Below are positions 50-43,400 of a stretch of DNA of 43,483 nt, in pieces; within the stretch, counting starts at the first letter, position 1; every line of letters starts with the position of its first letter. Made by a program: the position numbers and the translations under genes. Source of the DNA: a virus (Duplodnaviria > Caudoviricetes). The stretch lies in the IMG/VR virus record IMGVR_UViG_3300026534_000004, positions 1 through 43,483 of that record. One strand, 5' to 3'. Below the pieces are notes generated by a model that worked only from the letters and a program-made list of their open reading frames with translations, was not told the origin of the DNA and made no database searches.

Positions 50-126
50 TGGCGCCCTCGAGACGATTCGAACGTCCGACCTACCGCTTAGGAGGCGGTT
101 GCTCTATCCGGCTGAGCTACGAGGGC
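50..126 (-). tRNA. tRNA-Arg(CCT), integration target, intact copy
   Basis: Minus strand folds as a cloverleaf: GCCCTCG acceptor stem, D arm, ACCGC-CTCCTAA-GCGGT anticodon arm, GGACG-TTCGAAT-CGTCT T arm, encoded GCCA end. Confidence 0.95.
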
Positions 127-127
127 G
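84..127 (+). repeat. att core, left copy (44 bp)
   Basis: ccgcttaggaggcggttgctctatccggctgagctacgagggcg is identical to 43357-43400. Confidence 0.95.
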
Positions 128-220: not shown

Positions 221-255
221 CCGAGATCCCTGGTGGATACATAGTGGACACGGAG

Positions 256-1224
256 ATGGCGTCGATCCGCAAGACGCGGAGCGGCCGGTTTCAAGCAGTG
301 GTGCGGGTGCGCGGATACCCGACGGTGTCGCGTGTGTTCCGCACTCGCAGCCAGGCCCGAACCTGGGCGCAGCGCGTCGAGGATGATATGCGACTTGGGA
401 CCTGGCGGCAAGACGTCGGGGTCACGGTCGGGGATGTGCTCGACCGCTATCTGCGCGAGATCGTGCCGCTGAAGAAAAGCTGGGCATTCCATCGAACCAA
501 TTGCACGAATCTGGCCAAGGGGCTGGGGCGGGTCTTGCTCGCACGGCTGACAGCGCAGGACGTGGTCGCTTACGTCCGCTCCAGGCCGGTATCGCCATCC
601 ACAGTGCGCAAGGAGGTGAACACCCTGTCGCATGCCATAGATACAGCCGTGGCGCTGTGGGGGTATGAGATCACTGGTGACCCGGTGGGCAATGCAAAGC
701 GCATTTTGCGGGTGACCAAGGCGCTATCTCCTGCGCCGCCGCGCAACCGGCGCCTGGCTGACGGTGAGGAAGAGGCGCTACTGGCGGCCCTGGGCCGGTC
801 TCCAGAAACCAAGCTGCTGGCGCTGCTGACGCTGGCAACGGGCCGGCGCTTGAAAGAGTTGCTATCGATCTCCGATGAGGTGTTGGTGCGGCGCGGTGGC
901 CGCCTGCTGCTCGAGGTGCGCGATACGAAAACCGATCATCCGATCACGGTGCCGCTGTCAGCGGAGGCAGAGGCGCTGCTGGAGGGTTTCGACGGGTTCA
1001 CGATGCGGCCAGACAGCTACAGCCAGGCGTTCATGCGGGCAGTGAAGCGAGCCGGGTTGCGCGATCTTCGGCTGACGGACCTGCGGCACGAGGCGCTGTC
1101 TCGGCTGTTCGAGCGCGGGCTGTCGGTGCCGGAGGTCATGGCAATCTCAGGGCACCGAAGCCCGGATGTGTTGCTCAGGGTATATTCTCAAGTGGATGCG
1201 GATCGATTGAGTGATCGGCTATGA
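256..1224 (+). CDS. int: Tyrosine recombinase / phage integrase
   Basis: N-terminal MASIRK arm-binding-like segment; TGRRLKE, DLRHE, SGH and C-terminal Y motifs; adjacent to att. Alternative GTG start at 244. Confidence 0.92.
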   Translation: MASIRKTRSGRFQAVVRVRGYPTVSRVFRTRSQARTWAQRVEDDMRLGTWRQDVGVTVGDVLDRYLREIVPLKKSWAFHRTNCTNLAKGLGRVLLARLTAQDVVAYVRSRPVSPSTVRKEVNTLSHAIDTAVALWGYEITGDPVGNAKRILRVTKALSPAPPRNRRLADGEEEALLAALGRSPETKLLALLTLATGRRLKELLSISDEVLVRRGGRLLLEVRDTKTDHPITVPLSAEAEALLEGFDGFTMRPDSYSQAFMRAVKRAGLRDLRLTDLRHEALSRLFERGLSVPEVMAISGHRSPDVLLRVYSQVDADRLSDRL

Positions 1225-1437
1225 TTGAGCGGCCCATACCTCCAGCGCGAATTGCACTAGGTACGGGCAAGGGCGATAGCTTCGGTTCTCCGGCCGTGTC
1301 AGATATTTGCGGAACAGCGTCTCGTCAATGCCTAGCTGGCGGGCGATGGCTCGCTGTGACATGCCTATCTGCTCGATCAGTTCTCGCAGATAGGCAGGGT
1401 CTGGATTGTGCTGTGATATGTCCGGGGTGGCCATCAT
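1219..1437 (-). CDS. aca1: Anti-CRISPR-associated HTH repressor, Aca1 family
   Basis: TPDISQHNPDPAYLRELI..SQR..A..LG..YL..YRPCPYLVQFALE matches recalled Pseudomonas phage Aca1 (TPDASNHDPDPRYLRGLL...YRPAPYTVQFALE) over the full length. Confidence 0.85.
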   Translation of the reverse strand: MMATPDISQHNPDPAYLRELIEQIGMSQRAIARQLGIDETLFRKYLTRPENRSYRPCPYLVQFALEVWAAQS

Positions 1438-1745
1438 GCTCGCCCTGGTTTGTGGCTGACGGACTGCCCGCGCAGCTCCTCGATGAGCGCTTCCTGCGCT
1501 GTGTCCTCCATGACCGGATCGGGTGGCTCGCCGTTGGCACGGGCGATGGCATACCAGACAGTCAGCAACTGCGCCAGGTTGTCCTCTGGCGCGTTGAAAA
1601 ACAGGGCCTCGTCGATTCCGCTGGCGGCGCAGATACGGCGGATCACATCTGCGTCGAATTCAAGATCACCATCGGCTGTGCGGGACAGACTGAGGTCGGA
1701 AAAAGCCATCCCCTCGGGGATGGCGATGTTTACTTTGTCTTTCAT
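1434..1745 (-). CDS. Small acidic protein, candidate anti-CRISPR/anti-defence protein 3
   Basis: 103 aa, acidic, overlaps the aca1 start; function inferred from context only. Confidence 0.6.
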   Translation of the reverse strand: MKDKVNIAIPEGMAFSDLSLSRTADGDLEFDADVIRRICAASGIDEALFFNAPEDNLAQLLTVWYAIARANGEPPDPVMEDTAQEALIEELRGQSVSHKPGRA

Positions 1746-1966
1746 TATGCTTGGTCTCTGTCGCTGTCAGCCTTAATCTGGTCCAGTTCTGAGCATGATT
1801 CCCAATAGGATTTTGCCCGCTCATCCGCAGTCATCTGTCCGAATGCCTTACTCATGATTTTATAGGCCATTCCGAGCGAGACATTACTGATCCCAAGAGC
1901 TGCAAGTGGTTTAGGATCACCCGCCAAACGCGCTGCGGCTGCATCAAATAGTTTTTTGTTTTCCAT
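1745..1966 (-). CDS. Small protein, candidate anti-CRISPR/anti-defence protein 2
   Basis: 73 aa MENKKLF..., GGAGG RBS, 1-bp overlaps with both neighbours. Confidence 0.55.
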   Translation of the reverse strand: MENKKLFDAAAARLAGDPKPLAALGISNVSLGMAYKIMSKAFGQMTADERAKSYWESCSELDQIKADSDRDQA

Positions 1967-2187
1967 CACTTTTCCTCCGTCCATGCTTCTTTGTGACTGA
2001 TGATTTCTCCCGCTTCCTTGAGCTTCTCAAGACCGGCAAGTCCCTGCTCCATGGGGTAGATTGTGGGGTTTGCACCATTTACCCCGACGTGGACTTCGTT
2101 GCGTTCCTCATCGATTTTAATGGTGTATTCCTTCCCGTCATAATTGATGACCCATGTTTCAAGGTGGTTAATGGTGATGAGTGCCAT
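1966..2187 (-). CDS. Small acidic protein, candidate anti-CRISPR/anti-defence protein 1
   Basis: 73 aa MALITINH..., GAGGAGAGG RBS, first gene after the strong promoter. Confidence 0.55.
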   Translation of the reverse strand: MALITINHLETWVINYDGKEYTIKIDEERNEVHVGVNGANPTIYPMEQGLAGLEKLKEAGEIISHKEAWTEEK

Positions 2188-2248
2188 TTTCCTCTCCTCG
2201 CCCTTCCGGGCTGGTTCTGGCGCTCGGGGCCAATCCCCTGCGCTTGTG

Positions 2249-2290
2249 ATTATAGTAGCGCCATTGGTCGCTAATGTCAACAGTTTTTTT
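2249..2290 (-). promoter_or_regulatory. Strong sigma70 promoter of the acr-aca1 operon with putative Aca operator
   Basis: A-tract, TTGACA (2280-2275), 17 bp, TACTAT (2257-2252). Imperfect palindrome TAGCGCCATTGGTCGCTA (2256-2273) spans the spacer. Confidence 0.8.
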
Positions 2291-3014
2291 ACAGCCAGCC
2301 GTTTTTTTTCGCGAGGCGCCAGGCATCGGGGTAATGCTCGCGCAGGTACTCGATGCGGCCGTGCGACTCGCCAGAGCGGCCGATGATGCCGTTGCGGGCG
2401 TTTGGCCCCATGCGATGGTAGATGTCGAGGATGGGGAGGTCTCGGGTGACGATGTGGGCCCAGACATCGGTTGTACTCCAGCGTGCGATGGGCAGATAGG
2501 CTCCGCCGCCGGCGGCGTAGTTATAGGCAGCGCCGCGTTTGGCGATGAGGATGCGTCGAGCGCGGCTCTCGTCTGCGCGCAGGCCCATGACGCGGTGGGT
2601 GAGGCCGTGTTGTTCCGCGTAATCGTAAATCTGCGCGAACATTTCGTTGTGGATAGCCTGCTGGTAGTCCTCGACGGATTCCTGGGCGCGGTTGCCGCCC
2701 CATTTGTCCCAATCGAACCGGTGGAAATTCCATCCTGCGCGCTCGATCCAGCGCAGCCATTGGGCTCGATCCTCGTCCGTCCAATGGGTAGGGGTGCCAG
2801 GGTCGATCATGAGGATGGGGATGCCGGGGTGGACGCGGTGACAGAGATCGGCGACGACGGCGCTGTCTTTGCCGGCACTGAATCCTACATAGGTGACGGC
2901 TGGGTCGATGGCGCGAATGATCTCGATGGCCTGCCGCAGTTTGTTTCTATATCCTGGTGTTTGTGCGTGGCTGATGCAGGCTGCGCACCAGATGGGTGTC
3001 ATCTGGGTGGCCAC
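2289..3014 (-). CDS. cysH: CysH/PAPS-reductase-like protein (type IV-B associated)
   Basis: PP-loop VGFSAGKDS, IDPG, MGLRADES..R, PIARWSTTDVWAHI motifs; last gene of the csf operon. Confidence 0.85.
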   Translation of the reverse strand: MATQMTPIWCAACISHAQTPGYRNKLRQAIEIIRAIDPAVTYVGFSAGKDSAVVADLCHRVHPGIPILMIDPGTPTHWTDEDRAQWLRWIERAGWNFHRFDWDKWGGNRAQESVEDYQQAIHNEMFAQIYDYAEQHGLTHRVMGLRADESRARRILIAKRGAAYNYAAGGGAYLPIARWSTTDVWAHIVTRDLPILDIYHRMGPNARNGIIGRSGESHGRIEYLREHYPDAWRLAKKNGWL

Positions 3015-3520
3015 GGCATGATCTCCGGCAGGTAGATGAGGCCGCAGCCGAAGGCCCGGTTTTTCCCGATGCCGAACTGCAGCAGGCTGGCAAACCGTCC
3101 TCGATCGTGGACTTCGATGACGCCAGTTGTTTGCGCAACGCGCGCTGTCACGCCGTTTTTGATGCGGATGATTTCGTCCTCGAAGCGGACAAAGCGCAGC
3201 GTGGCCGCGTCGCCGAGTTGGCGTTTGAGCCAGTCGCGCCGGCGGAATCGATCATGGATCTCACGGCGCTTGTAGCCGTGTGCTTTCTCGCGCTTGGTGA
3301 TGACAAGATCGGCTGCAAACGACACAGGGCGCCCTGTCGGGATGCTGGACAGTGGCAGTTCAGTGCATGGATGGTGCGGCCTGGTGATGCTGAGCATCAA
3401 ATAGCCGTCGTCCATGCGGCGGTAGAGAAACTTCCTCGGCCCGTCATCGAACAGCGTGTGCAGGTGCTGGTGCACCTCATATGTCGGTATGTTTGGCAGT
3501 TTGACTTGGCTCAGAAACAC
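2999..3520 (-). CDS. cas6e: Cas6e (CasE/Cse3-like) crRNA-processing endoribonuclease
   Basis: GTG start with GGAGG RBS. MFLSQV..YEVHQHLHTLF..FLYR resembles the CasE N-terminus with the catalytic His; C-terminal Gly loop GIGKNRAFGCGL. Confidence 0.85.
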   Translation of the reverse strand: MFLSQVKLPNIPTYEVHQHLHTLFDDGPRKFLYRRMDDGYLMLSITRPHHPCTELPLSSIPTGRPVSFAADLVITKREKAHGYKRREIHDRFRRRDWLKRQLGDAATLRFVRFEDEIIRIKNGVTARVAQTTGVIEVHDRGRFASLLQFGIGKNRAFGCGLIYLPEIMPWPPR

Positions 3521-4161
3521 GGCTGTCCCTCCACGCAGTCTTCCCACCAGGGCGAGTACCAATAGGGTGGGCACCAGGGCCGCAGCGGCGCGGCCGTCCC
3601 GGTAGCAAGTTGTGCTCGCGCCGGGACGTTGCGGCGCTCCACGATGAATGCGGGGTCGATGTCCGCAAGCTCGACGCGCCATTCATGCACCGCGCCGTAG
3701 CCAGCCGCACCGTGGGGACCGATGGAGCGCACATCGTCCAGTAATTGCTGGATGTCGTCCGGCTCGCAGTCGTTGTCCATGATGAGCGCGGCGCGCCATT
3801 CTCGCGCGACGATAGTTTTGATCGGTTTGCGACGCTCCTTGAACTGGCCCGCCGCGGTGTTGATCTTCATCTTTCTGCCGAGGTTGGCGCGCTGCGATGG
3901 GTAGCGCTTGTGCAGATACTCACGGCCCTCGATGACATCACTGATCGGATAGATGTCTGTGGCGGCCCAGAGCGGTTTACCGTATTCATCAGTCCATAGA
4001 CGTGCCAGCGGGATGGGAACCGGCACTGGGCCTGTCTCCTGCATGGACGGCAGCACCTGGTGGCCTGCAGATGCCCACGCGAGCAGCGAGGCGAGGTTCT
4101 GTCTGGCCACGCCGGCAACAACCGGGGTCGTGACAGTAGCGGTGACGATCAGGCCGCGCAC
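3511..4161 (-). CDS. csf3: Csf3 / Cas5-family RAMP (type IV)
   Basis: RAMP first strand LIVTATVTTPVV, Gly loop SIGPHGAAGYGAV, C-terminal RPWCPPYW; follows the Cas7-like gene. Confidence 0.75.
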   Translation of the reverse strand: MRGLIVTATVTTPVVAGVARQNLASLLAWASAGHQVLPSMQETGPVPVPIPLARLWTDEYGKPLWAATDIYPISDVIEGREYLHKRYPSQRANLGRKMKINTAAGQFKERRKPIKTIVAREWRAALIMDNDCEPDDIQQLLDDVRSIGPHGAAGYGAVHEWRVELADIDPAFIVERRNVPARAQLATGTAAPLRPWCPPYWYSPWWEDCVEGQPCF

Positions 4162-4994
4162 AGCACTTTCTCCGTGCCGAGTGTGCCAGTGGTCAGCCCG
4201 TCGCGCATGGCATCGTGATGGCCTGCAATATGATCGAGATAGGCCTCGCCCTTATTCGGCAGCGAGGCGCAGACGATCTCGACGCGGCCACGACCTTGCC
4301 GTGCCTGACCGCCGATGTAGCGATCCCAATTATCCAGGGCGATGTCGATGCAGCCGAGGGTGGCGTCCGGGCAGAGGTCATCCAGGGTGAGTTCGATGTG
4401 GATCTTCGCGCCGGCGGCGAGCGTCTCGTAGGTGTAGAGCATCTGATTGCCATCTGAGCTGCTGCCTGTGCCGCGCGTGCGCGTCTCCTCGTCGAGCAGG
4501 TCGAACGCGGAGACCTGCCTGGCCTCATCCTCCAGCTCAGGCGCGACCAGCGCGAGGGGGTCGGCGTATTCACGTGCGACCAGCCAGGCGGCGATGCGCA
4601 GACGGGAGCGTGGCAGGATGAAGCCATCGACGGCGCCACCGAGCAGATCGAGGCTAGGGTAGAGCGAACGGATCATGTGGCCCAGCTCGATGTCGTTTGT
4701 TGGCGCCTTGGCGCCGGCCTTCATTTGCCCGCCAGAGTACAGCAGGTTGACGACGGTTTGCGGCACACTGCCGGGCGTGATGTCGAGTTCGTCAACTAGA
4801 TGATCGGCCAGTGGGGTGCGGAACAGGGTGGCGCGCAGCGCGTTCTCGCTGATGGCTGGCACCCGCGCTGGCACTCCATTGACGAGCATGTTCTGGCGCA
4901 TGAACAAGCGGGTGTTGGTCTGGTTATCGATGCCAGTTACGGTGTCACCGTGGGCAATCGGTGTGATGGTCTGCAGCGTGATCGAGTATTTCAC
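4149..4994 (-). CDS. csf2: Csf2 / Cas7-family backbone subunit (type IV)
   Basis: LQTITPIAHGD, VPAISENALRATLFR, LYSGG, PSLDLLGG, QMLYTYETLAAG, IGGQARQGRG motifs. Confidence 0.85.
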   Translation of the reverse strand: MKYSITLQTITPIAHGDTVTGIDNQTNTRLFMRQNMLVNGVPARVPAISENALRATLFRTPLADHLVDELDITPGSVPQTVVNLLYSGGQMKAGAKAPTNDIELGHMIRSLYPSLDLLGGAVDGFILPRSRLRIAAWLVAREYADPLALVAPELEDEARQVSAFDLLDEETRTRGTGSSSDGNQMLYTYETLAAGAKIHIELTLDDLCPDATLGCIDIALDNWDRYIGGQARQGRGRVEIVCASLPNKGEAYLDHIAGHHDAMRDGLTTGTLGTEKVLCAA

Positions 4995-5416
4995 AGGATG
5001 CCCTCCAGAGAATCTTCAAAATCGTCATAGTTGGATTCGGTCGTTTGCAATGCCGACCGTTTCGGTTTTTCGGCGCTGTGGATCATGCGCGCGATAGTGA
5101 CGATGCTCACCGCCTCGGTTGCCAGACAGCGCAGCACGTCGCCCTGTTGGTCTGCACGGAAGAAACCGGCAATCTGGCTGTCGAATTTCGTTGGCGGAAC
5201 AGGCCACCGCATCTTGCGTAGCAGGGCCGCCCAGAATTCCGGGATGTTGCGGCTCTGCACGGCGCACAATTCCACGCGCCCAGCCAGTACGGGATAGCGT
5301 GTCGTGCCGGTGAACAGGCCGGTGCCGTCCACCGAGTTAAAACAATCCAAGCTGAGCTTGATCAGTTTCACCGCGGTCTGTTGCGGCGGGGTCAGCGTGT
5401 CGAGCAGTGTTTGCAT
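4991..5416 (-). CDS. cas11: Cas11-like small subunit (type IV-B)
   Basis: 141 aa predicted helical protein between csf1 and csf2, the cas11 position in IV-B loci; assignment is mainly positional. Confidence 0.6.
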   Translation of the reverse strand: MQTLLDTLTPPQQTAVKLIKLSLDCFNSVDGTGLFTGTTRYPVLAGRVELCAVQSRNIPEFWAALLRKMRWPVPPTKFDSQIAGFFRADQQGDVLRCLATEAVSIVTIARMIHSAEKPKRSALQTTESNYDDFEDSLEGIL

Positions 5417-6131
5417 GAGCTCGTTTCTCCTCTTTGGTTACGCCGGCCATGAGCAGGGCCGGCAGGAATTCGGGGCGCTGGCGCAGGTTGGCCAGGGTGG
5501 ATTCCAGGCGCATGGTCTCCGCCGGGTCGCGGCTGGCGCGCTTGTAGTCGTTGAACAGCGAATGATAGATCGCGCTCTTGGCGTAGCCTGCGCGCAGGAT
5601 TGGCAGTATTTCGTCGATAGCGCGCAGCAGGTCGGCAAGATCGAATTGGCGCCACTCGCTCACGTCGTAGTCTGGCGCGTGCACATACAACCCGAACCGT
5701 TCGATGCTGGCCAGTTGGCAGCGGTGCCACAGCCGGATTTTCACGTCGGTCGTGAGCACGCCGGTAATGGCGGTTTGGCCTGGCAGGCGGGCCAGATCGC
5801 GGATGATCTGCAGCCATGGGCGCTTGTCCTGCACTACTGACTCGACCGAGATCACCGCCAGCTCAAAACCCGTCGGCGCGCTGGCGATGAAATTCCCTGG
5901 GCGCCCTTTGCCGATATCCATCAGCCAGGCGCATGGGATGCAGAAATGCGTGGCCGTGCGGAAACGGAATAGTTGCGAGTCGCCGACGGTTGTGCTCTTG
6001 ATGATCTTCTTGGTCGGCACGCCTTTGTGGCGTATTTCATCTCCACATATCATGCAGCGTCCGGATGCGGGTTCAGGATCGTGTTTCGGTGCGGGCTGTC
6101 CTGCCGACAGCCAAATGAGTTCTGACGGCAT
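5337..6131 (-). CDS. csf1: Csf1 / Cas8-like large subunit (type IV)
   Basis: 264 aa with N-terminal Zn finger (CMICG...FCIPC); first gene of the RAMP operon. Confidence 0.72.
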   Translation of the reverse strand: MPSELIWLSAGQPAPKHDPEPASGRCMICGDEIRHKGVPTKKIIKSTTVGDSQLFRFRTATHFCIPCAWLMDIGKGRPGNFIASAPTGFELAVISVESVVQDKRPWLQIIRDLARLPGQTAITGVLTTDVKIRLWHRCQLASIERFGLYVHAPDYDVSEWRQFDLADLLRAIDEILPILRAGYAKSAIYHSLFNDYKRASRDPAETMRLESTLANLRQRPEFLPALLMAGVTKEEKRAHANTARHADPAATDRGETDQAQLGLF

Positions 6132-6702: not shown

Positions 6703-7338
6703 TCAGTCTCCACCGCATCGAATGGCATCAAAAATGACCTTCTTCCATTTTTTCCACCAATCCAACGCTTTTTTGTCCATTTTTTTGATGTCGTCATCAG
6801 AAAATGATTGCCAAAGCTCAATGGAATGTTGTTGGCAGCCTATTGCCAACTGATTCTTCCACCAAACAACGTGATATCGAGGTAACAACAAAGTGGAATT
6901 CGGCAAGATGCACAAACGCAAGTCAGACCCGATTAAGTTAGCTCCACTCAAGTTAGACCCGCTTAAGTTAGCTCCACTCAAGTCAGAGCCGCTTAAGTTA
7001 GCTACACTCAAGTCAGAGCCGCTTAAGTTAGCTCCACTCAAGTTAGAGCCGCTTAAGTTAGCTCCACTCAAGTTAGACCCGCTTAAGTTAGCTCCACTCA
7101 AGTTAGAGCCGCTTAAGTTAACCCCACGTAAGATAGCTCTACTCAAATCAACGTTGCATAAGACAGCTCTACTCAAGTTAGATCCACTCAAGTCAATCCT
7201 GCGCAAGACAGTTTTGTTCAAGATGGCCCGACGGCCATCTTGTCCGTTTGTCTCCAACCAGAGATTATGATCGTCTAAAATTTTTTTGATATTCATGTTT
7301 ACCTTCAGTTTGCCACTTTTCATGTCCACGGTGTTCAT
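6703..7338 (-). CDS. Pentapeptide-repeat protein
   Basis: Many (A/S)(N/D)LSG pentapeptides; C-terminal IGCQQH..W domain; start chosen at the repeated GGAG-ATG unit. Confidence 0.88.
   Translation of the reverse strand: MNTVDMKSGKLKVNMNIKKILDDHNLWLETNGQDGRRAILNKTVLRRIDLSGSNLSRAVLCNVDLSRAILRGVNLSGSNLSGANLSGSNLSGANLSGSNLSGANLSGSDLSVANLSGSDLSGANLSGSNLSGANLIGSDLRLCILPNSTLLLPRYHVVWWKNQLAIGCQQHSIELWQSFSDDDIKKMDKKALDWWKKWKKVIFDAIRCGGD
6931..7120. repeat. Near-perfect 30-bp tandem repeat (about 6 units) encoding pentapeptides
   Basis: Unit gcttaagttagctccactcaagttagaccc and minor variants, in frame. Confidence 0.9.
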
Positions 7339-7350
7339 GACGATCTCCAC
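7326..7350. repeat. 25-bp direct repeat, copy 1 (RBS+ATG unit)
   Basis: ccacggtgttcatgacgatctccac is identical at 9284-9308. Confidence 0.9.
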
Positions 7351-7402
7351 TACGTTCGCGCCATGTATTGTCTTGCAGGCCATCCAGTTTCAGGTGTTCA
7401 TC

Positions 7403-8233
7403 TCATTCCCCTCCTGCCAGCATCATCCATGCTGCTGCCGCTTGCAGCGGGACTTGGCCGTTACCGAGTGCCCTTATCCTGTCCACCCGATTGGCCACCC
7501 CATCAGCCATTCGACCCACTCCGGGTTCAGCCGTCCACCAGGCCGGACGATGCCCGCAGCGGGGTCGTTCAGTTGCCTCCTTCGCTGTCCTGGATTGCCA
7601 GCCGTTCTCCAGCAGCCCGCGTCCGGGGTTGGCCACATGGTTGCAGCCGCTGCCAGTAGCGGACGCCCATGGCTTGAGTTGCCCGCCATACTCCCAATCC
7701 CCTGCCTCGCCGTTGTCGCTGTCGGTGTCGGAAGCAGCCCGGCTTGCCAGGCACCACCATCGAGCGCGTAGGTGCGGGGCACCAATTGCGGAAGCTGGTA
7801 GCACGCACCATCGAGCGTCATACCCCATGGCGGCCAAGTCTCCAAGCACTCTGCCGAGTCCTCGAACAGTGATTGCTGGGGAGTTCTCCAGGAATATGTA
7901 TCGTGGTTGAATTTCGCCAGCCACCCGGACGACTTCCGACCAAAGGCCTGAGCGCTCGCCGTCAATGCCTGCCCCAGCTCCGGCGACTGAAATATCTTGG
8001 CAAGGGAATCCCGCATGGATGCAATCCACTCGTCCATTCCAGTCGGATGGGTTGAACAATCGGATATCTCCCTCCCACACGTGCAATTCAGGAAACCATC
8101 CATCAGATGCCCTTTTTCTCAGAACTTCGCAGCAAAATTTGTCATATTCGACAGCGCAAATTGGTTGATGGCCGAGAATTAAATCTGCTAACAAGCCTCC
8201 CCCGGCCCCGGCGAATAAGTGCATAGTCTTCAC
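7403..8233 (-). CDS. DNA cytosine-5 methyltransferase (alpha polypeptide)
   Basis: Motif I LFAGAGG, IV GFPCQD, VI ENS, VIII HLRARWW, X ALGNGQVP. Confidence 0.92.
   Translation of the reverse strand: MKTMHLFAGAGGGLLADLILGHQPICAVEYDKFCCEVLRKRASDGWFPELHVWEGDIRLFNPSDWNGRVDCIHAGFPCQDISVAGAGAGIDGERSGLWSEVVRVAGEIQPRYIFLENSPAITVRGLGRVLGDLAAMGYDARWCVLPASAIGAPHLRARWWCLASRAASDTDSDNGEAGDWEYGGQLKPWASATGSGCNHVANPGRGLLENGWQSRTAKEATERPRCGHRPAWWTAEPGVGRMADGVANRVDRIRALGNGQVPLQAAAAWMMLAGGE
7474..8103 (-). CDS. Nested alternative-frame ORF, putative MTase beta polypeptide carrying motif IX
   Basis: 209-codon open frame inside the MTase ending RLNPEWVEWLMGWPIGWT, with PTP repeats; start uncertain. Confidence 0.65.
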   Translation of the reverse strand: MDGFLNCTCGREISDCSTHPTGMDEWIASMRDSLAKIFQSPELGQALTASAQAFGRKSSGWLAKFNHDTYSWRTPQQSLFEDSAECLETWPPWGMTLDGACYQLPQLVPRTYALDGGAWQAGLLPTPTATTARQGIGSMAGNSSHGRPLLAAAATMWPTPDAGCWRTAGNPGQRRRQLNDPAAGIVRPGGRLNPEWVEWLMGWPIGWTG

Positions 8234-8259: not shown

Positions 8260-8451
8260 TTATTGCCCCTTCATTCTTTTGAGCCATCGCGTGCGCGCCG
8301 CCTTGCACCATCGGCACATGCGATAGGTGAACCGAAACGCCTCGATGGGCTCGTCTTGGTGCGGTGGATAAAGCGGCCCGATGATCTCGTCGATAACGAT
8401 CTCTCCTGGGCGTTTCCAGCAGTTCTCACATAAATCAGAACGGGATGTCAT
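8260..8451 (-). CDS. Small CxxC-containing hypothetical protein
   Basis: [11 protein letters not shown]...MCRWC; overlaps the end of ssb. Confidence 0.55.
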
Positions 8452-8839
8452 CGTCAAAATCCTGCGGCCCAGGTTGTTGCACCGGCTGCTGGGCGTTTCC
8501 GCGGCTGTCGAGCATCTGCATCTCGCTGGCAACGATCTCGGTGGTGTAGCGGTCGCTGCCGTCCTGGGCCTGCCACTTGCGGGTGCGCAGGCTGCCCTCG
8601 ATGTAAACCCTGTCTCCCTTGCCCAGGTACTGCCCGGCGATTTCCGCCAGGCGGTTGAAGAAAACCACCGTGTGCCACTCTGTGCGCTCCTGCTTCTCCC
8701 CGGTGTTTTTGTCCTTCCAGGTGTCCGATGTGGCAATCCTGATGTTCGTCACTGCCATCCCGGTGCTTGTGGCCCGCTGCTCCGGGTCCGCCCCCAGGTT
8801 GCCGATGAGAATGACCTTGTTGACGCCTCTGCTTGCCAT
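8435..8839 (-). CDS. ssb: Single-stranded DNA-binding protein
   Basis: [20 protein letters not shown]...DFDDDIPF. Confidence 0.97.
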
Positions 8840-9634: not shown

Positions 9635-9710
9635 TGGAGCCACCGCGGAGAGTCGAACTCCGAACCGACTGAGTACAAAACAGCTGCTCTGCCATTTGAG
9701 CTACGGTGGC
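9635..9710 (-). tRNA. Phage tRNA-Thr(TGT)
   Basis: GCCACCG acceptor stem, D arm, GCTGT-TTTGTAC-TCAGT anticodon arm, CGGAG-TTCGACT-CTCCG T arm, TCCA end. Confidence 0.88.
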
Positions 9711-12539: not shown

Positions 12540-13325
12540 ATGCGCATTCCAAAGCTGGTGTCGCAGCGCCTGAGGGAAGAGGTCCCACGATTTCAGAAAG
12601 TGTTGGCCGAGGCGCGTTCGCGGGATGTGAACGAGGCCGACACCGTCATCATCGTCACCGACATTCTCGAGCGCGTCTTCGGGCTCGACAAATACACCGA
12701 AGTAACACGCGAATACGCAATCAAGGGGACCTATGTCGATCTCGCGGTGAAAATCGACGATTCGCTGCAGTATCTCATCGAGGTCAAGGCCATCGGCATG
12801 GACCTGCGTCACAACCACCTGCGTCAGGCGGTGGATTATGCGGCGAAGGAGGGCGTCAAGTGGGTGGTGCTCACCAATGGCGTCGATTGGGAGGTGCACC
12901 GTGTCGATGTGGCCGGGCAGGTCTCCAATGAACAAGTTGTCCAGTTCAACTTTCTGGAGCTTTCGATGCGCCGGCAGGAGGATCAGGAATTGCTGTTTCT
13001 GCTGTGCCGCAAGGGCCTCGATAAAGACCTGATGGACGAGTTCTATGAGCGGCAGCAGGCATGCAATCGCTTCATGATCGGTGCACTTGTCTGTGGCGAC
13101 GACGTGGCCGCGCTGGTGCGGCGTCAGCTACGCGCCATCACGCCGGGTCTCAAGGTGAGCCTGGACGAAGTGAAGGAGATCATTCGCAACGAAGTGGTCA
13201 AACGCGACATCACAGAGAGCGAGCCTGGGGTTCAAGCTCACAGAAAAGTCGCCCGGCAATTGGCGAGGCTCAAAAAGGACCGGGAGCTCCGCAAACAAGC
13301 GGCCGAGCCTTCTCAAGAGGCGTGA
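12540..13325 (+). CDS. Stand-alone HsdR N-terminal-like PD-(D/E)XK nuclease
   Basis: NEADT, VDLAV, IEVKA, QAVDYA, VLTNG motifs. Confidence 0.8.
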   Translation: MRIPKLVSQRLREEVPRFQKVLAEARSRDVNEADTVIIVTDILERVFGLDKYTEVTREYAIKGTYVDLAVKIDDSLQYLIEVKAIGMDLRHNHLRQAVDYAAKEGVKWVVLTNGVDWEVHRVDVAGQVSNEQVVQFNFLELSMRRQEDQELLFLLCRKGLDKDLMDEFYERQQACNRFMIGALVCGDDVAALVRRQLRAITPGLKVSLDEVKEIIRNEVVKRDITESEPGVQAHRKVARQLARLKKDRELRKQAAEPSQEA

Positions 13326-13380
13326 GCGTTCATTCCAAATCCACCACCACCTGCCGCACCAGTGTTGACTAGCGATGTTG

Positions 13381-14307
13381 TCAACCGTCCTCGCCTGGAG
13401 GATGCAAATTGTATTTCTTGATCACATTGCCGCTGACCGGATCAATATAGGTCGTTTCGGTAACACACAGCGTCACACTCTGTCCAATTCGGAGATCGGC
13501 AATCAATTCAGGATGACGTCTGTCGAAGCGGATCCTCGCCGTTCCTTCCTGTGTTCGCAGCTCGATTCGTCCCGTTGCAGCCAACAAGGCCACTTCGCCG
13601 GAAAGTTCAACTTGCTGTTCGGCAGGCTCTTCCACCGCCTCAAGTGCAACTCGCAACGTGGCCATTTGCGGCACAGTGGCCGACCAGTGGTAATGCTTGC
13701 CATCAGGACTGTCCCAGGAGAACTCGCAGGCCAACGATTCGCCTTCCATGGCCTCGATCAGCGCGGCAAGGCTTTTGCCGGCCCGAATACCGATGTTGTG
13801 CAGTTTTTCAATGAAGTCGCTGGTTGGCGCATTCAAAATCTCGAACAGGGCGGACAAAGCGTCCTGTACCGGCGAGTCGCCAGCCAGATCCGGCGCAACG
13901 TTCGCCGTGAGGATCATGCGCGAAGAACCGTGTGCCAATCCGGCCAAGCGCAAATCGATCATATCAGCCCACTCCCTGGGGACATGGTGAGCATCATGCT
14001 GATGGCGCAGCTTGTACGAGGCATACAACACTAGCTTGTTCAGCGGTTCTGCCAACTTGGCCACCAGATGCAGCGGCATGGAGGTATTCAGCACCTTCTG
14101 TCCGGCCAACCGCAGCTCGAAAATCTCTTTTCTGCGCCGTGCCTGCTCGATCTCGAGCGCGCGCTGAAGCTCCTGCAGGCGATCTTCCCAGGACGCCTTG
14201 AAGAAGGCGCGTGTGTGGTCTTCAAGGTCCTGGCGTTCTTCGTCATATCCGGCCATCAGGCCGCGGACGGTTTCGATTTCAGACTGAAGTTCCGCAATAC
14301 GATTCAT
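13381..14307 (-). CDS. Hypothetical protein coupled to the nucleotidyltransferase
   Basis: 308 aa with N-terminal coiled coil and beta-rich C-terminus; ATGA overlap with the upstream NTase. Confidence 0.75.
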   Translation of the reverse strand: MNRIAELQSEIETVRGLMAGYDEERQDLEDHTRAFFKASWEDRLQELQRALEIEQARRRKEIFELRLAGQKVLNTSMPLHLVAKLAEPLNKLVLYASYKLRHQHDAHHVPREWADMIDLRLAGLAHGSSRMILTANVAPDLAGDSPVQDALSALFEILNAPTSDFIEKLHNIGIRAGKSLAALIEAMEGESLACEFSWDSPDGKHYHWSATVPQMATLRVALEAVEEPAEQQVELSGEVALLAATGRIELRTQEGTARIRFDRRHPELIADLRIGQSVTLCVTETTYIDPVSGNVIKKYNLHPPGEDG

Positions 14308-16487: not shown

Positions 16488-17350
16488 GCATCGACGCGAC
16501 ACGATGGGCTTGGGAGCAGGTCTGCGACAAGGCCACCGACAAGTTCGTGTTGCTGTCGATGGCCGACCGCGCAGACGAGCATCACTGCTGCTATCCATCC
16601 ATCCAGCGACTCGCTGAAGATACTCAACTCAACCGGAAAACGGTGATGGAATGCATTCGCCGGTTGGAGTCGCGCGGCCTGATCGAGGCCGACAGGTCGA
16701 ATGGTCGACACACGAAATACCGGCTCATCGGTGTGCATGGACGACACGAAACCAGTCCCAAAATCGGCACTGGTGGGCGAACACTAACCGGTCCCAAAAA
16801 CGGGACCGCTTCCAGTCCCAAAACTGGGACCGGTCCCAAAAACGGGACCAGTACCAAAAACGGACATGACCAGTCCCAAAAACGGGACCGCACCAGTCCC
16901 AAAAACGGGACACTAACCTACCAAGAACCTACCAAGAACCTACCAAGCGCTGCGCAGCTACGCGCGCACGCGCGCGAGACGGCAATCGCAGACAATCATG
17001 CTCACCCAACCGAGCTGGTCGCCACACTGGCCGAACTCGGCTTCCGCGCCGAGCAGGTCCACACGCCCAAGGTCATGGCCATGCTGCGCCGCTGGCAATC
17101 CGCCGGCGTGACACCGGACACCCTCCGCCAGCTCGTCATCACGCTGCGCGCCAGAACGCCCAATCGCGAGTTCGGCCCCGCGTACCTGGACGCTCCCATG
17201 CACGACTACCTCGAGGCACTCAACCATGCACAGACCGACACCGGCAGCACAACTCGCCACTCAGGCCATCGGCAACGCACGAAAGCCGAGATGTTCTGGG
17301 ACAACATCGGCCCAGGGCTCGCCATCCCGTGGGACGCGCCCGATCCCTGA
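16484..17350 (+). CDS. Replication initiator (O-like, N-terminal wHTH)
   Basis: KFVLLSMADRAD..CYPSIQRLAEDTQLNRKTV; internal iterons. Confidence 0.85.
   Translation: MSIDATRWAWEQVCDKATDKFVLLSMADRADEHHCCYPSIQRLAEDTQLNRKTVMECIRRLESRGLIEADRSNGRHTKYRLIGVHGRHETSPKIGTGGRTLTGPKNGTASSPKTGTGPKNGTSTKNGHDQSQKRDRTSPKNGTLTYQEPTKNLPSAAQLRAHARETAIADNHAHPTELVATLAELGFRAEQVHTPKVMAMLRRWQSAGVTPDTLRQLVITLRARTPNREFGPAYLDAPMHDYLEALNHAQTDTGSTTRHSGHRQRTKAEMFWDNIGPGLAIPWDAPDP
16751..16947. repeat. Iterons / putative phage origin within the initiator gene
   Basis: About 7 copies of (A)CCAGTCCCAAAAACGGGAC-like units, then 3 x AACCTACCAAG (16915-16947). Confidence 0.8.
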
Positions 17351-29932: not shown

Positions 29933-31216
29933 ATGAGTGATCTGATTCGCCGGTTTTTCGATGATTTTTCGTCGAATGACAGAGCATTGCGGGCAATGGG
30001 TTACAGCCAAGGCTCTCAGCGGCTTGCACGTTTGATGGATGAAGCGAACCTCGACGCAAATCACATTTGGGTGAAGGCAGAACCCATTGGAACGGCGCAC
30101 ATTGATTTGTCCAAGAAAATTGGCGTTGCCGTCAGCAAATATCGCGACGGGACCGTCAACGGTCCGACAAATATACGCAAAGTTGGAACTGAATTCTGGG
30201 TCTGTAATTACTATTCACAAATTTCTCGATTTGACGAGAACTGGAGTTTCCTTGGTTATTGGGGGCGTTTTGGGGACGCTATAAATACTGCTCTTTATAA
30301 TTCTGTTCGAGATATTGCCGTCGATGAAGCAAATGATCGTGTGTTCATTGTGATGTCAAACAATAATAGAGTTCGCTGTTTTTCATTGAGCAGTGCCGAT
30401 CACATTTGGTCTTGGGGGGATGGATCAAAAGGCGATTATGCGACGAATCAACCGGACTTCCCATGTTCATGTGAGGTATTACCGAATGGTAATCTGGCTG
30501 TTGCAGTTAAAAATGGTCGCGGGACTATTGGCGGCCAAGAAGGCATATATGGTGGGTATATTGCCGAATTGGATGCCGAAACAGGCAATCCAGTTGCATG
30601 TCGACTGATGAAAAAGACGGATGGTTATCCTTGGCAGGATGAAGTTTCTCTGCCTACGCAAATCCGCATCCTCAATGGTCGACTCTATATATCAAACAAT
30701 GATATTAACTTGATTGGCGTATTCGATCCTACCACATGGGATTACATCGAGACGTTTGCGCGTCCTGCCGGATTCGATGTGCAAAGCGTCTATCCGAATG
30801 GTATTTGCCTCAATGATGCTGGAGACCAGTTGGTAGTTGCAGCGAATTCTCCGAAATTAGTCGTTGCGCTTGGTCTGACAGATCACGATTACAAGTGGCA
30901 TTCCGGAACAGCCGGGTGGGATGATCGTGTTTCAGCGGAAAACAAACCGGGCGAGTTTTTTAGCATTAATGGCATATTGCCGATTGGGAATGGGTTTTAT
31001 GCTGTTGCCGATATGGGGAACAATCGCGTCTCTATTGTTCCAGAGTTCAATTATTTTCCAGTCCAATATCAATTCTCTGTGCCGCCTGGATACCGACTTG
31101 TCAAAGAACAATTGCCGCCAGGGTTTGACCCATCGACAGGAATCTTGATGGTGCATATTGCAGAACTCCAGAATGTTTCGCCGATCTATCTGGCTTGTGA
31201 GAGGGAGGCTGCGTGA
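29933..31216 (+). CDS. NHL-repeat/beta-propeller protein
   Basis: Repeated DIAVD..VFI..NNRV, VADMGNNRV, PNGICLN blades; lower GC than flanks. Confidence 0.7.
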   Translation: MSDLIRRFFDDFSSNDRALRAMGYSQGSQRLARLMDEANLDANHIWVKAEPIGTAHIDLSKKIGVAVSKYRDGTVNGPTNIRKVGTEFWVCNYYSQISRFDENWSFLGYWGRFGDAINTALYNSVRDIAVDEANDRVFIVMSNNNRVRCFSLSSADHIWSWGDGSKGDYATNQPDFPCSCEVLPNGNLAVAVKNGRGTIGGQEGIYGGYIAELDAETGNPVACRLMKKTDGYPWQDEVSLPTQIRILNGRLYISNNDINLIGVFDPTTWDYIETFARPAGFDVQSVYPNGICLNDAGDQLVVAANSPKLVVALGLTDHDYKWHSGTAGWDDRVSAENKPGEFFSINGILPIGNGFYAVADMGNNRVSIVPEFNYFPVQYQFSVPPGYRLVKEQLPPGFDPSTGILMVHIAELQNVSPIYLACEREAA

Positions 31217-43341: not shown

Positions 43342-43356
43342 TATCTGGAAAAACTT

Positions 43357-43400
43357 CCGCTTAGGAGGCGGTTGCTCTATCCGGCTGAGCTACGAGGGCG
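43357..43400 (-). repeat. att core, right copy (5' half of tRNA-Arg)
   Basis: Identical to 84-127; lacks the T arm and 3' acceptor strand. Confidence 0.95.

What the first reader, a model, noticed from the sequence alone, without database searches (positions are those of the whole stretch)
2289..6131. Prophage-encoded, array-less type IV-B-like CRISPR effector that carries its own Cas6e
Seen: six tightly overlapping genes in the order csf1(Zn finger)-cas11-csf2/cas7-csf3/cas5-cas6e-cysH, with no cas1/cas2, no dinG, no nuclease, and no repeat-spacer array that I can find in the prophage. Established: IV-B loci have cas11 and cysH but typically lack both cas6 and arrays, while Cas6e occurs in type I-E and some DinG-bearing IV-A loci. 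The Cas6e here retains the YxxHQ catalytic motif and the Gly loop. Inference: this hybrid may cut host type I-E pre-crRNA and load it into a non-interfering complex (crRNA theft/sponge), or may use an unrecognised guide RNA.
Basis: partly seen in the sequence, partly recalled or inferred. Interest (0 to 1): 0.93.

Follow-up and report, generated by a model that had tools for sequence, protein, structure and literature searches.

The report
Phage type IV-B CRISPR with Cas6e
A prophage carries an intact, array-less type IV-B CRISPR-like gene set plus its own Cas6e gene (a predicted RNA cutter), next to an operon ending in a homolog of the anti-CRISPR regulator Aca1; the complex likely takes guide RNAs from the host's CRISPR system and is predicted to dock on the DNA-replication clamp, which makes the unknown job of type IV-B systems testable.

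Summary
Observation confirmed: six intact, overlapping genes (csf1-cas11-csf2-csf3-cas6e-cysH-like) sit in a 43.5 kb prophage with no array or repeat unit found. Cas6e starts at 3520 (173 aa), folds like E. coli CasE and keeps Tyr14/His17. It belongs to a compact Cas6e group found in IV-B operons of two distant Csf2 clades, but most close relatives lack it (3 of 35 loci).

Three leads:
- Csf3 lacks an N-terminal arm in 3 of 3 cas6e loci and has it in 32 of 32 others.
- Csf1 ends in QLGLF, the Pol II clamp motif, with selection on the overlapping codons.
- An operon ending in an Aca1 homolog follows.

crRNA capture for counter-defence is the best reading (0.4) but unshown: the host is not visible, and a solved IV-B complex did not enrich co-expressed crRNA. 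Phage IV-B, rare Cas6 exceptions and the sponge idea are in print. This scan already noted IV-B with Cas6e, and the clamp tail, on other DNA. Verdict: new variant of a known kind.

The parts
5337..6131 (-). csf1 (Cas8-like large subunit, 264 aa) with four invariant Cys and an unstructured tail ending QLGLF
   Evidence: PADLOC typeIV_Cas8 3.2e-9; C26/C29/C64/C67 invariant in 24 sequences; model pLDDT 89.6, residues 245-264 without secondary structure; only significant fold match is chain A of a type IV-A Csf-crRNA complex, 7xg1, E 3.7e-4
5337..5354 (-). QLGLF-stop, predicted beta-clamp-binding motif, written over cas11 codons L21-N27
   Evidence: QLGLF is the E. coli Pol II motif (PMC3716654); binding untested
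4991..5416 (-). cas11-like small subunit (141 aa) with an acidic tail
   Evidence: PADLOC typeIV_Cas11 1.1e-3; homologs lie directly before csf2 in most related loci; a profile built from them hits phage SPI1 Orf41 at 9.6e-8
4149..4994 (-). csf2 (Cas7-like backbone, 281 aa)
   Evidence: PADLOC 8.7e-34; profile matches IV-B Csf2 of PDB 7jhy at 4.5e-9; 352 homologs
3511..4161 (-). csf3 (Cas5-like, 216 aa), short form without the N-terminal arm of cas6-less relatives
   Evidence: PADLOC 2.6e-22
2999..3520 (-). compact Cas6e (173 aa) with Tyr14, His17, Gly loop and C-terminal LPEIM
   Evidence: model pLDDT 95.3; best fold match E. coli CasE 4tvx, TM 0.79
2289..3014 (-). cysH-like PP-loop protein (241 aa), SAGKDS, no C-terminal Cys
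   Evidence: PF01507 5.2e-10; alignment of 17 homologs
2252..2280 (-). sigma70-type promoter (TTGACA-17-TACTAT) enclosing an imperfect palindrome (2275-2254) like the Aca1 operator
   Evidence: 10 of 12
2188..2250 (-). leader with two hairpins; not repeat-like
   Evidence: z -2.7; no Rfam or I-E repeat match
1966..2187 (-). small acidic ORF (73 aa), anti-CRISPR candidate by position only
   Evidence: no family hit
1745..1984 (-). small ORF (79 aa), anti-CRISPR candidate by position only
   Evidence: only a weak DUF3604 hit below cut-off
1434..1745 (-). acidic ORF (103 aa), homologs in two other cas6e-carrying phage records
   Evidence: L048 E 2e-23, L051 E 1.7e-21; no PDB hit
1219..1437 (-). 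Aca1 homolog (72 aa HTH)
   Evidence: PDB 7c0g Aca1, E 1.1e-17
244..1224 (+). tyrosine integrase (context)
   Evidence: PF00589 3.8e-14
81..127 (.). att repeat in tRNA-Arg(CCT); partner at 43354-43400 (context)

Best explanation
This is an intact phage type IV-B operon with an added compact Cas6e, and it likely serves counter-defence: Cas6e would cut hairpin RNA supplied in trans, most likely host type I-E-like pre-crRNA, and load it into the nuclease-free Csf complex, which is predicted to ride the DNA sliding clamp. Shown here: the genes, their families and folds, the retained Cas6e catalytic residues, the lack of a detectable array, the Csf3 arm/Cas6e pattern, selection on the QxxLF tail, and the Aca1-type operon next door. 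Inferred: Cas6e is active and caps the RNA 3' end; the short Csf3 takes the cut 5' handle as Cas5 does in IV-A; stolen anti-phage guides are thereby kept from Cascade and would steer the complex onto the phage's own protospacers on replicating DNA; the CysH-like protein would modify bound nucleic acid by ATP-dependent adenylation.
For: Cas6e: His17 in 62 of 62 and Tyr14 in 50 of 62 members of the group; profile best matches E. coli CasE over its full length, 3.7e-28; fold TM 0.79 to CasE and to Thermus Cse3-RNA. It is kept in IV-B operons of two distant Csf2 clades: 4 of 4 viral hits of a Cas6e motif scan lie between csf2 and csf3 with cysH downstream. No cis substrate was found, so the substrate would come in trans. 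Csf3 arm absent in 3 of 3 cas6e loci and present in 32 of 32 loci without a Cas6 hit (duplicates included). In IV-A, Cas6 caps the 3' end and Cas5 binds the Cas6-cut 5' tag (PMC11519345). Aca1 homolog, strong promoter and operator-like palindrome directly downstream. A promoter of 10 of 12 or better follows the operon in 5 of 6 cas6e loci against 5 of 26 others (Fisher p 0.006 ignoring relatedness). Csf1 ends in QxxLF in 12 of 24 aligned proteins, and in 12 of 12 chosen overlap loci against 0.52 expected from codon usage.
Against: The host and its CRISPR content are not visible, and no spacer-like piece appeared in the part of the contig tables shown (tables were cut). A IV-B complex co-expressed with I-E Cas6 and array bound mostly non-CRISPR RNA (PMC7937560). 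IV-B correlates negatively with other CRISPR systems in hosts, and those authors call a sponge role unlikely (10.1101/780106). 32 of 35 related loci show no Cas6, so the core function does not need it. The window's Cas6e has ADLVIT where CasE has RLRANP and a shorter basic hairpin, so its RNA specificity may differ. The group has weak tree support (0.61). The cas6e operon lies upstream of the Aca1-type promoter and is not part of that operon; 5 cas6-less loci have such a promoter too and L035 has an Aca1-like gene. The three small ORFs match no known family. 12 of 24 Csf1 lack the QxxLF tail, among them L048 and L049, which have Cas6e. The Csf3/Cas6e pattern may be a single event, since monophyly of the cas6e-linked Csf2 is not rejected (AU p 0.20).
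Confidence: 0.4

Rival explanations
1. The operon is a clamp-tethered nucleic-acid modification machine that uses a phage or cellular non-CRISPR RNA; Cas6e only trims that RNA, doing the job that the Csf3 arm does in cas6-less relatives. Host crRNA plays no part.
For: CysH-like is present in the cas6e and cas6-less loci alike while Cas6e is optional; PP-loop intact and no catalytic Cys, fitting the adenylation idea in PMC8175902; QxxLF appears on Csf1 in two distant clades and on Cas11 in L009/L039; the solved IV-B complex binds non-CRISPR RNA; a ParB/IbrB-like gene (named from recalled motifs) lies between csf3 and cysH in L010.
Against: No conserved non-coding RNA is shared among the cas6e phage records compared; leader hairpins differ between loci; no substrate or modification is known; the Cas6e group stays closest to I-E CasE among solved structures.
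Confidence: 0.3
2. The complex borrows host crRNAs to silence or stall competing phages and plasmids without cutting, like type IV-A CRISPR interference but with a CysH-like partner in place of DinG.
For: Csf1 folds like a chain of the IV-A Csf-crRNA complex; IV-A represses transcription and disturbs plasmid replication (PMC11656645; PMC11551745); a clamp tether would suit fork blocking.
Against: No helicase was seen, and DinG is reported as essential for IV-A plasmid clearance (PMC7937560); host guides that target this phage would turn the complex on the phage itself; it sits beside an anti-CRISPR-type operon.
Confidence: 0.15
3. Cas6e is not a subunit: it acts alone as an anti-CRISPR that cuts or hoards pre-crRNA, or is a passenger, and the IV-B core is ordinary.
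For: Cas6e is optional and changes position (after csf3 here, after csf2 in L046-L049); its neighbourhood is anti-CRISPR-like.
Against: All 7 loci fetched with this Cas6e group are IV-B operons with overlapping or abutting genes, although 3 of them were found through Csf2; Csf3 changes with it; catalytic residues are conserved.
Confidence: 0.12

Closest known systems
Type IV-B CRISPR-Cas (Mycobacterium sp. JS623 Csf complex, PDB 7JHY, PMC7937560; Skermania phage SPI1 Orf41-44)
   Same: csf1-cas11-csf2-csf3 plus cysH-like; no array, adaptation module, helicase or nuclease; mobile-element borne. SPI1 Orf41-44 hit cas11, csf2, csf3 and cysH profiles.
   Different: Own Cas6e; short Csf3; Csf1 tail with QLGLF; adjacent Aca1-type operon; Csf2 distant from 7JHY (profile E 4.5e-9).
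Type IV-A3 CRISPR-Cas (Klebsiella plasmids; PMC11519345, 10.1101/780106)
   Same: Csf complex with a Cas6e-type enzyme recruited from type I-E; no nuclease.
   Different: IV-A3 has DinG and an array and lacks Cas11 and CysH. The four Cas6 proteins from cas6-csf3-csf2 loci that I took to be IV-A fall outside this Cas6e group.
Type I-E Cas6e (E. coli CasE, Thermus Cse3)
   Same: Fold, YxxH motif, Gly loop, basic hairpin.
   Different: 173 aa against 199; ANP motif replaced in the window's subfamily; C-terminal LPE[VI]M; no Cascade or array beside it.
acr-aca1 operons of Pseudomonas phages (JBD30; PMC8633003)
   Same: Strong promoter with a palindrome sharing the ATTAG...AAT...CTA frame of IR2, small ORFs, terminal Aca1.
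   Different: Palindrome core differs from GGCAC; the small ORFs match no known family or solved Acr in the searches run.
Beta-clamp clients with QL[SD]LF motifs (E. coli Pol II, QLGLF; PMC3716654)
   Same: Identical pentapeptide at the C-terminus of an unstructured tail.
   Different: Carried by a Cas8-like subunit and overprinted on cas11; binding untested.

Membership tests
Type IV-B CRISPR-Cas | csf1, csf2, csf3 core | tested here: met
Type IV-B CRISPR-Cas | cas11-like small subunit | tested here: met
   weak PADLOC hit 1.1e-3, supported by position and a profile hit to SPI1 Orf41
Type IV-B CRISPR-Cas | cysH-like gene with PP-loop and no catalytic C-terminal Cys | tested here: met
   description in PMC8175902
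Type IV-B CRISPR-Cas | no CRISPR array, helicase or adaptation genes | tested here: met
   for arrays; for genes (not every ORF scanned)
Type IV-B CRISPR-Cas | no Cas6 (typical, not strict: 'rare exceptions' in 10.1101/780106) | tested here: not met
   Cas6e present; this is the variant feature
Type IV-A (incl. IV-A3) | DinG helicase and CRISPR array | tested here: not met
   none found
Type IV-D / RecD-linked type IV | RecD-like helicase in the locus | tested here: not met
   flanking ORFs are an excisionase-like HTH and small ORFs
Cas6e endoribonuclease | family HMM above cut-off and double-RRM fold | tested here: met
   TIGR01907 51.4 bits against 45.2; TM 0.79 to CasE
Cas6e endoribonuclease | catalytic Tyr/His and Gly loop | tested here: met
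   Tyr14, His17, G150/152/158/160; their catalytic role is recalled, and PMC8175902 says type IV Cas6e uses His/Tyr
Cas6e endoribonuclease | cleaves I-E repeat hairpins | not testable with these tools
   needs a cleavage assay; ANP motif differs
acr-aca1 operon | Aca1 HTH gene behind a strong promoter with an inverted repeat | tested here: met
acr-aca1 operon | upstream genes are anti-CRISPRs | tested here: inconclusive
   no family, PDB or usable atlas hit; activity untested
Beta-clamp client | QL[SD]LF-type motif at an unstructured terminus, under selection | tested here: met
Beta-clamp client | physical binding to the clamp | not tested

The most novel reading that the evidence does not exclude
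A phage-borne type IV-B variant is an RNA-guided self-shielding machine. Its own compact Cas6e steals host type I-E guides; the complex rides the sliding clamp on replicating phage DNA, occupies exactly the protospacers the host has memorised, and marks them through the CysH-like enzyme. Cas6-less relatives use the Csf3 N-terminal arm to pick up a different RNA.
Probability: 0.15. Interest if true: 0.92.

Novelty: new variant of a known kind. Interest (0 to 1): 0.6.

Why it matters
The RNA source and the function of type IV-B systems are open questions in every review passage read here. A IV-B operon with its own intact Cas6e gives a handle: whatever this enzyme cuts should be the guide. Close natural pairs with and without Cas6e (Csf2 about 65% identical; Csf3 without and with the arm), a five-residue clamp motif and a PP-loop give clean single-change controls. 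If crRNA capture holds, it would be a multi-subunit, RNA-guided form of anti-CRISPR.

Tried and rejected
Cis guide RNA: none found by repeat search, mini-array scan, Rfam on the window and on 13 related loci, repeat search in L046-L049, an I-E-like pattern in 5 phage records (0 of 5), or a scan with the I-E repeat of L045 (no site within 10 mismatches in the window, while shuffles reach 9-10). blastn among cas6e phage records gave only coding matches, one terminator and short chance hits.

Leader hairpins as solitary repeats: rejected. They differ between loci, and strong promoters with GC-rich leaders also follow cas6-less operons.

QLGLF as a by-product of the cas11 frame: considered first, then rejected on codon statistics and non-overlapping occurrences.

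Several independent gains of cas6e in the near clade: suggested by the FastTree tree but not supported (AU p 0.20 with 2000 replicates, fewer than the program advises).

Host CRISPR: G000 is only the phage. About 800 sampled genomes searched with a Csf2 model gave 9 loci, none with the compact Cas6e (flanks were short). Contigs of runs X1 and X2 laid on part of the window showed no spacer-like piece in the rows listed. No RNA holder listed.

Single-protein scans of viral contigs with Csf2 and with the close Cas6e alignment found nothing, nor did Csf2 against annotated phages. Atlas searches gave no hit of 0.9 or more (the second query was 9 residues short). Two relevant papers (Moya-Beltran 2021, Al-Shayeb 2022) are not held.


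Full report
Setting. The window is a complete lambda-like prophage: 47-bp att repeats at 81-127 and 43354-43400, tRNA-Arg, an integrase, and replication, head and tail genes. The held genome is the window alone, so the host cannot be inspected. The one run that holds the whole stretch is labelled a hydrothermal vent metagenome (X1, possibly the source). A close Csf2 relative is annotated in a Gammaproteobacteria MAG.

Observation. The six genes are present, open and overlapping on the minus strand. csf1 starts in the stop codon of an excisionase-like gene and the scan found no minus-strand promoter between 7500 and csf1, so the operon is probably read as part of the leftward early transcript (inference). 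The Csf2 profile matches the IV-B Csf2 of PDB 7jhy. The Csf1 model matches only chain A of a type IV-A Csf-crRNA structure. The Cas6e model (pLDDT 95) matches E. coli CasE and Thermus Cse3 at TM 0.79. The Cas6e start is best placed at 3520. No array, mini-array or repeat unit was found.

How common it is. Csf2 has 352 homologs at E <= 1e-5, the best 120 being 63-86% identical apart from itself; the same search with Cas6e gave 12. Scans gave 43 loci (L018 is the window itself, L013 a weak false match, several are duplicates). Of 35 with csf2 and csf3 in view, 3 have Cas6e (window, L014, L023). 32 have no Cas6 hit, and 29 of those also show cysH. So the core is a large array-less IV-B family, and Cas6e is an optional addition.

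A dedicated Cas6e group. A profile search returned short Cas6e-like proteins, many ending in LPE[VI]M. A motif scan of viral contigs gave 4 loci, and all 4 are IV-B operons of a distant Csf2 clade: cas11-csf2-cas6e-small gene-csf3-cysH, with csf1 at either end (L046 and L049 are near-duplicates). In a tree of 172 Cas6 sequences, all IV-B-linked ones fall in one 62-member group with weak support (0.61). That group excludes the I-E Cas6e of plasmid L045 and four Cas6 proteins from cas6-csf3-csf2 loci that I labelled IV-A by gene order. His17 is present in 62 of 62 and Tyr14 in 50 of 62. Gene context is known for only 7 loci of the group. No array or I-E-like repeat was found in those records either, though they are 34-83% complete.

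Csf3 changes with Cas6e. In 3 of 3 cas6e loci the Csf3 core begins at the csf2 stop. In 32 of 32 loci without Cas6, 33-39 codons intervene (104 in three copies whose csf2 has an in-frame TAG), and they encode a conserved basic/aromatic arm. Two further short Csf3 proteins share a contig length with a Cas6e homolog (P0142/P0124, P0144/P0129; linkage inferred from length only). Csf3 of L048 and L049 is also short. Caveats: this may be one evolutionary event (AU p 0.20), there is no cas6-less control for the distant clade, and cas6-less phage SPI1 has only a short extension (judged by eye). In IV-A, Cas5 binds the Cas6-cut 5' tag (PMC11519345, passages). I infer that the arm and Cas6e are alternative ways of acquiring RNA.

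Clamp-type tail. Csf1 reads 80 nt into cas11 and ends QLGLF, the E. coli Pol II clamp motif (PMC3716654, passages), on a tail without predicted structure. The cas11 residues LSLDCFN could generate this by chance, so I tested the synonymous sites. Leu21 is CTC in 11 of 11 and Cys25 TGT in 13 of 13 loci, while no other two-fold NNY column of cas11 or csf2 exceeds 0.77 T. In 12 chosen loci Q..LF occurs 12 times against 0.52 expected, and shared NNY codons in csf2 agree in only 52% of cases (median), close to saturation. Left out of those 12: L004/L021 (K for Q), L027/L028 (SPGLF), L010 (Csf1 stops earlier) and near-duplicates. Over all 24 aligned Csf1, 12 end in QxxLF. Of 1305 ORFs of 100 aa or more, 17 have such an end and 14 are Csf1. 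The motif also occurs without the overlap: L047 Csf1 ends QQELF, and L009/L039 Cas11 ends QFGLFGDDQ where Csf1 lacks a tail. Binding is untested.

Neighbouring operon. Right after cysH a 10-of-12 sigma70 promoter encloses ATTAGCGACCAATGGCGCTACT, which resembles the Aca1 operator ATTAGGCACAATGTGCCTAAT in its flanks and centre but not its core (PMC8633003, passages). It drives three small ORFs of no known family and an Aca1 homolog (E 1.1e-17). Such a promoter follows 5 of 6 cas6e operons and 5 of 26 cas6-less ones; relatedness inflates the p of 0.006. The 103-aa ORF has homologs beside the L048 operon and elsewhere in the L047 phage. This places the operon in an anti-defence neighbourhood but does not show its function.

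Mechanism. I commit to crRNA capture for counter-defence at 0.4. An intact I-E-like Cas6 with no cis substrate found needs RNA in trans, the complex has no nuclease, and a clamp tether would place it on replicating DNA, where stolen anti-phage guides would cover the phage's own protospacers. Every functional step is inferred. Against it: a IV-B complex without its own Cas6 did not enrich co-expressed I-E crRNA (PMC7937560, part 1 of 4 read); IV-B correlates negatively with other CRISPR systems (10.1101/780106, passages); the ANP motif of CasE is replaced here; and the host is unseen. The main rival (0.3) is a clamp-tethered modification machine using a non-CRISPR RNA.

What is known. Phage and prophage IV-B, the CysH link, and the scavenger and sponge ideas are in print (PMC8175902; PMC11656645; PMC10541130; all passages). 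[quoted passage not shown] I could not see that table: a supplement search returned only four passages. The passages read from the 2025 classification describe no IV-B variant with Cas6 (PMC12669027; figures not held). Searches (listings and abstract starts) showed no paper on a phage IV-B with Cas6e, on the Csf3 arm or on a Csf1 clamp motif; the one hit for the clamp search (PMC11551745, passages) concerns IV-A1 and DnaX. Moya-Beltran 2021 and Al-Shayeb 2022 were not available and may bear on novelty.

Earlier notes of this scan report IV-B with Cas6 or Cas6e, and the clamp tail, on other DNA. I read them after making my own tests of those two points. Their claim that hosts carry I-E spacers against such phages was not testable here and is not counted as support.

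Verdict. Real and intact; a new variant of type IV-B that recurs in distant phages. Interest 0.6.

Noticed in passing
L010:6700-6800 and 13508-13570: The cas6-less operon is flanked by a direct repeat of about 50 AT-rich bases, and a ParB/IbrB-like gene (named from recalled motifs) lies between csf3 and cysH; this may be a mobile cassette.
   Followed up: no
window 4991-5030; L008, L041 cas11 ends: Cas11 tails are acidic and end in hydrophobic residues; L008 ends DDMPI and L041 DEMPI, like the DDDIPF end of the window's SSB at 8435-8839. Possible SSB-tail mimicry.
   Followed up: no
L007, L029, L030: 8664-8666: csf2 has an in-frame TAG at a conserved Trp in all three copies: a broken gene or read-through.
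   Followed up: partly
L039:6466-7995: About 1.4 kb inserted in cas11 with a duplicated 3' part; the QFGLF end lies after the insertion.
   Followed up: partly
L023:6361-7495: This cas6e phage also carries a reverse-transcriptase-like ORF and a Phage_DGR RNA.
   Followed up: no
L002, L015, L019 downstream of cysH: Shared leader CCGCGCCYCGGG...CAGGGGCT behind an 11-12 of 12 promoter, with no Rfam match; L023 and L048 share a different CCGACCCRGCGGRACYGGG hairpin.
   Followed up: partly
L046-L049 between cas6e and csf3; L001:9586-9930: A small HTH-looking gene (by eye) is inserted in the distant-clade operons; L001 has an unexplained 338-base gap between csf3 and cysH.
   Followed up: no
window 9635-9710: Phage-borne tRNA-Thr(TGT) in the leftward region.
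   Followed up: no
window 6703-7383: Pentapeptide-repeat protein with a 15-bp DNA period.
   Followed up: no
window 7403-8233: C5 cytosine methyltransferase in the same leftward gene run.
   Followed up: no
window 12540-14034 and 29933-31216: Moron-like genes: an endonuclease-like ORF with a partner, and a low-GC 427-aa ORF with no PHROG hit.
   Followed up: no
window 2209-2264: Run X1 holds a second, diverged contig matching the leader region, so a related promoter-leader exists in that sample.
   Followed up: no
window 16751-16932: Iteron-like repeats inside the replication initiator gene.
   Followed up: no
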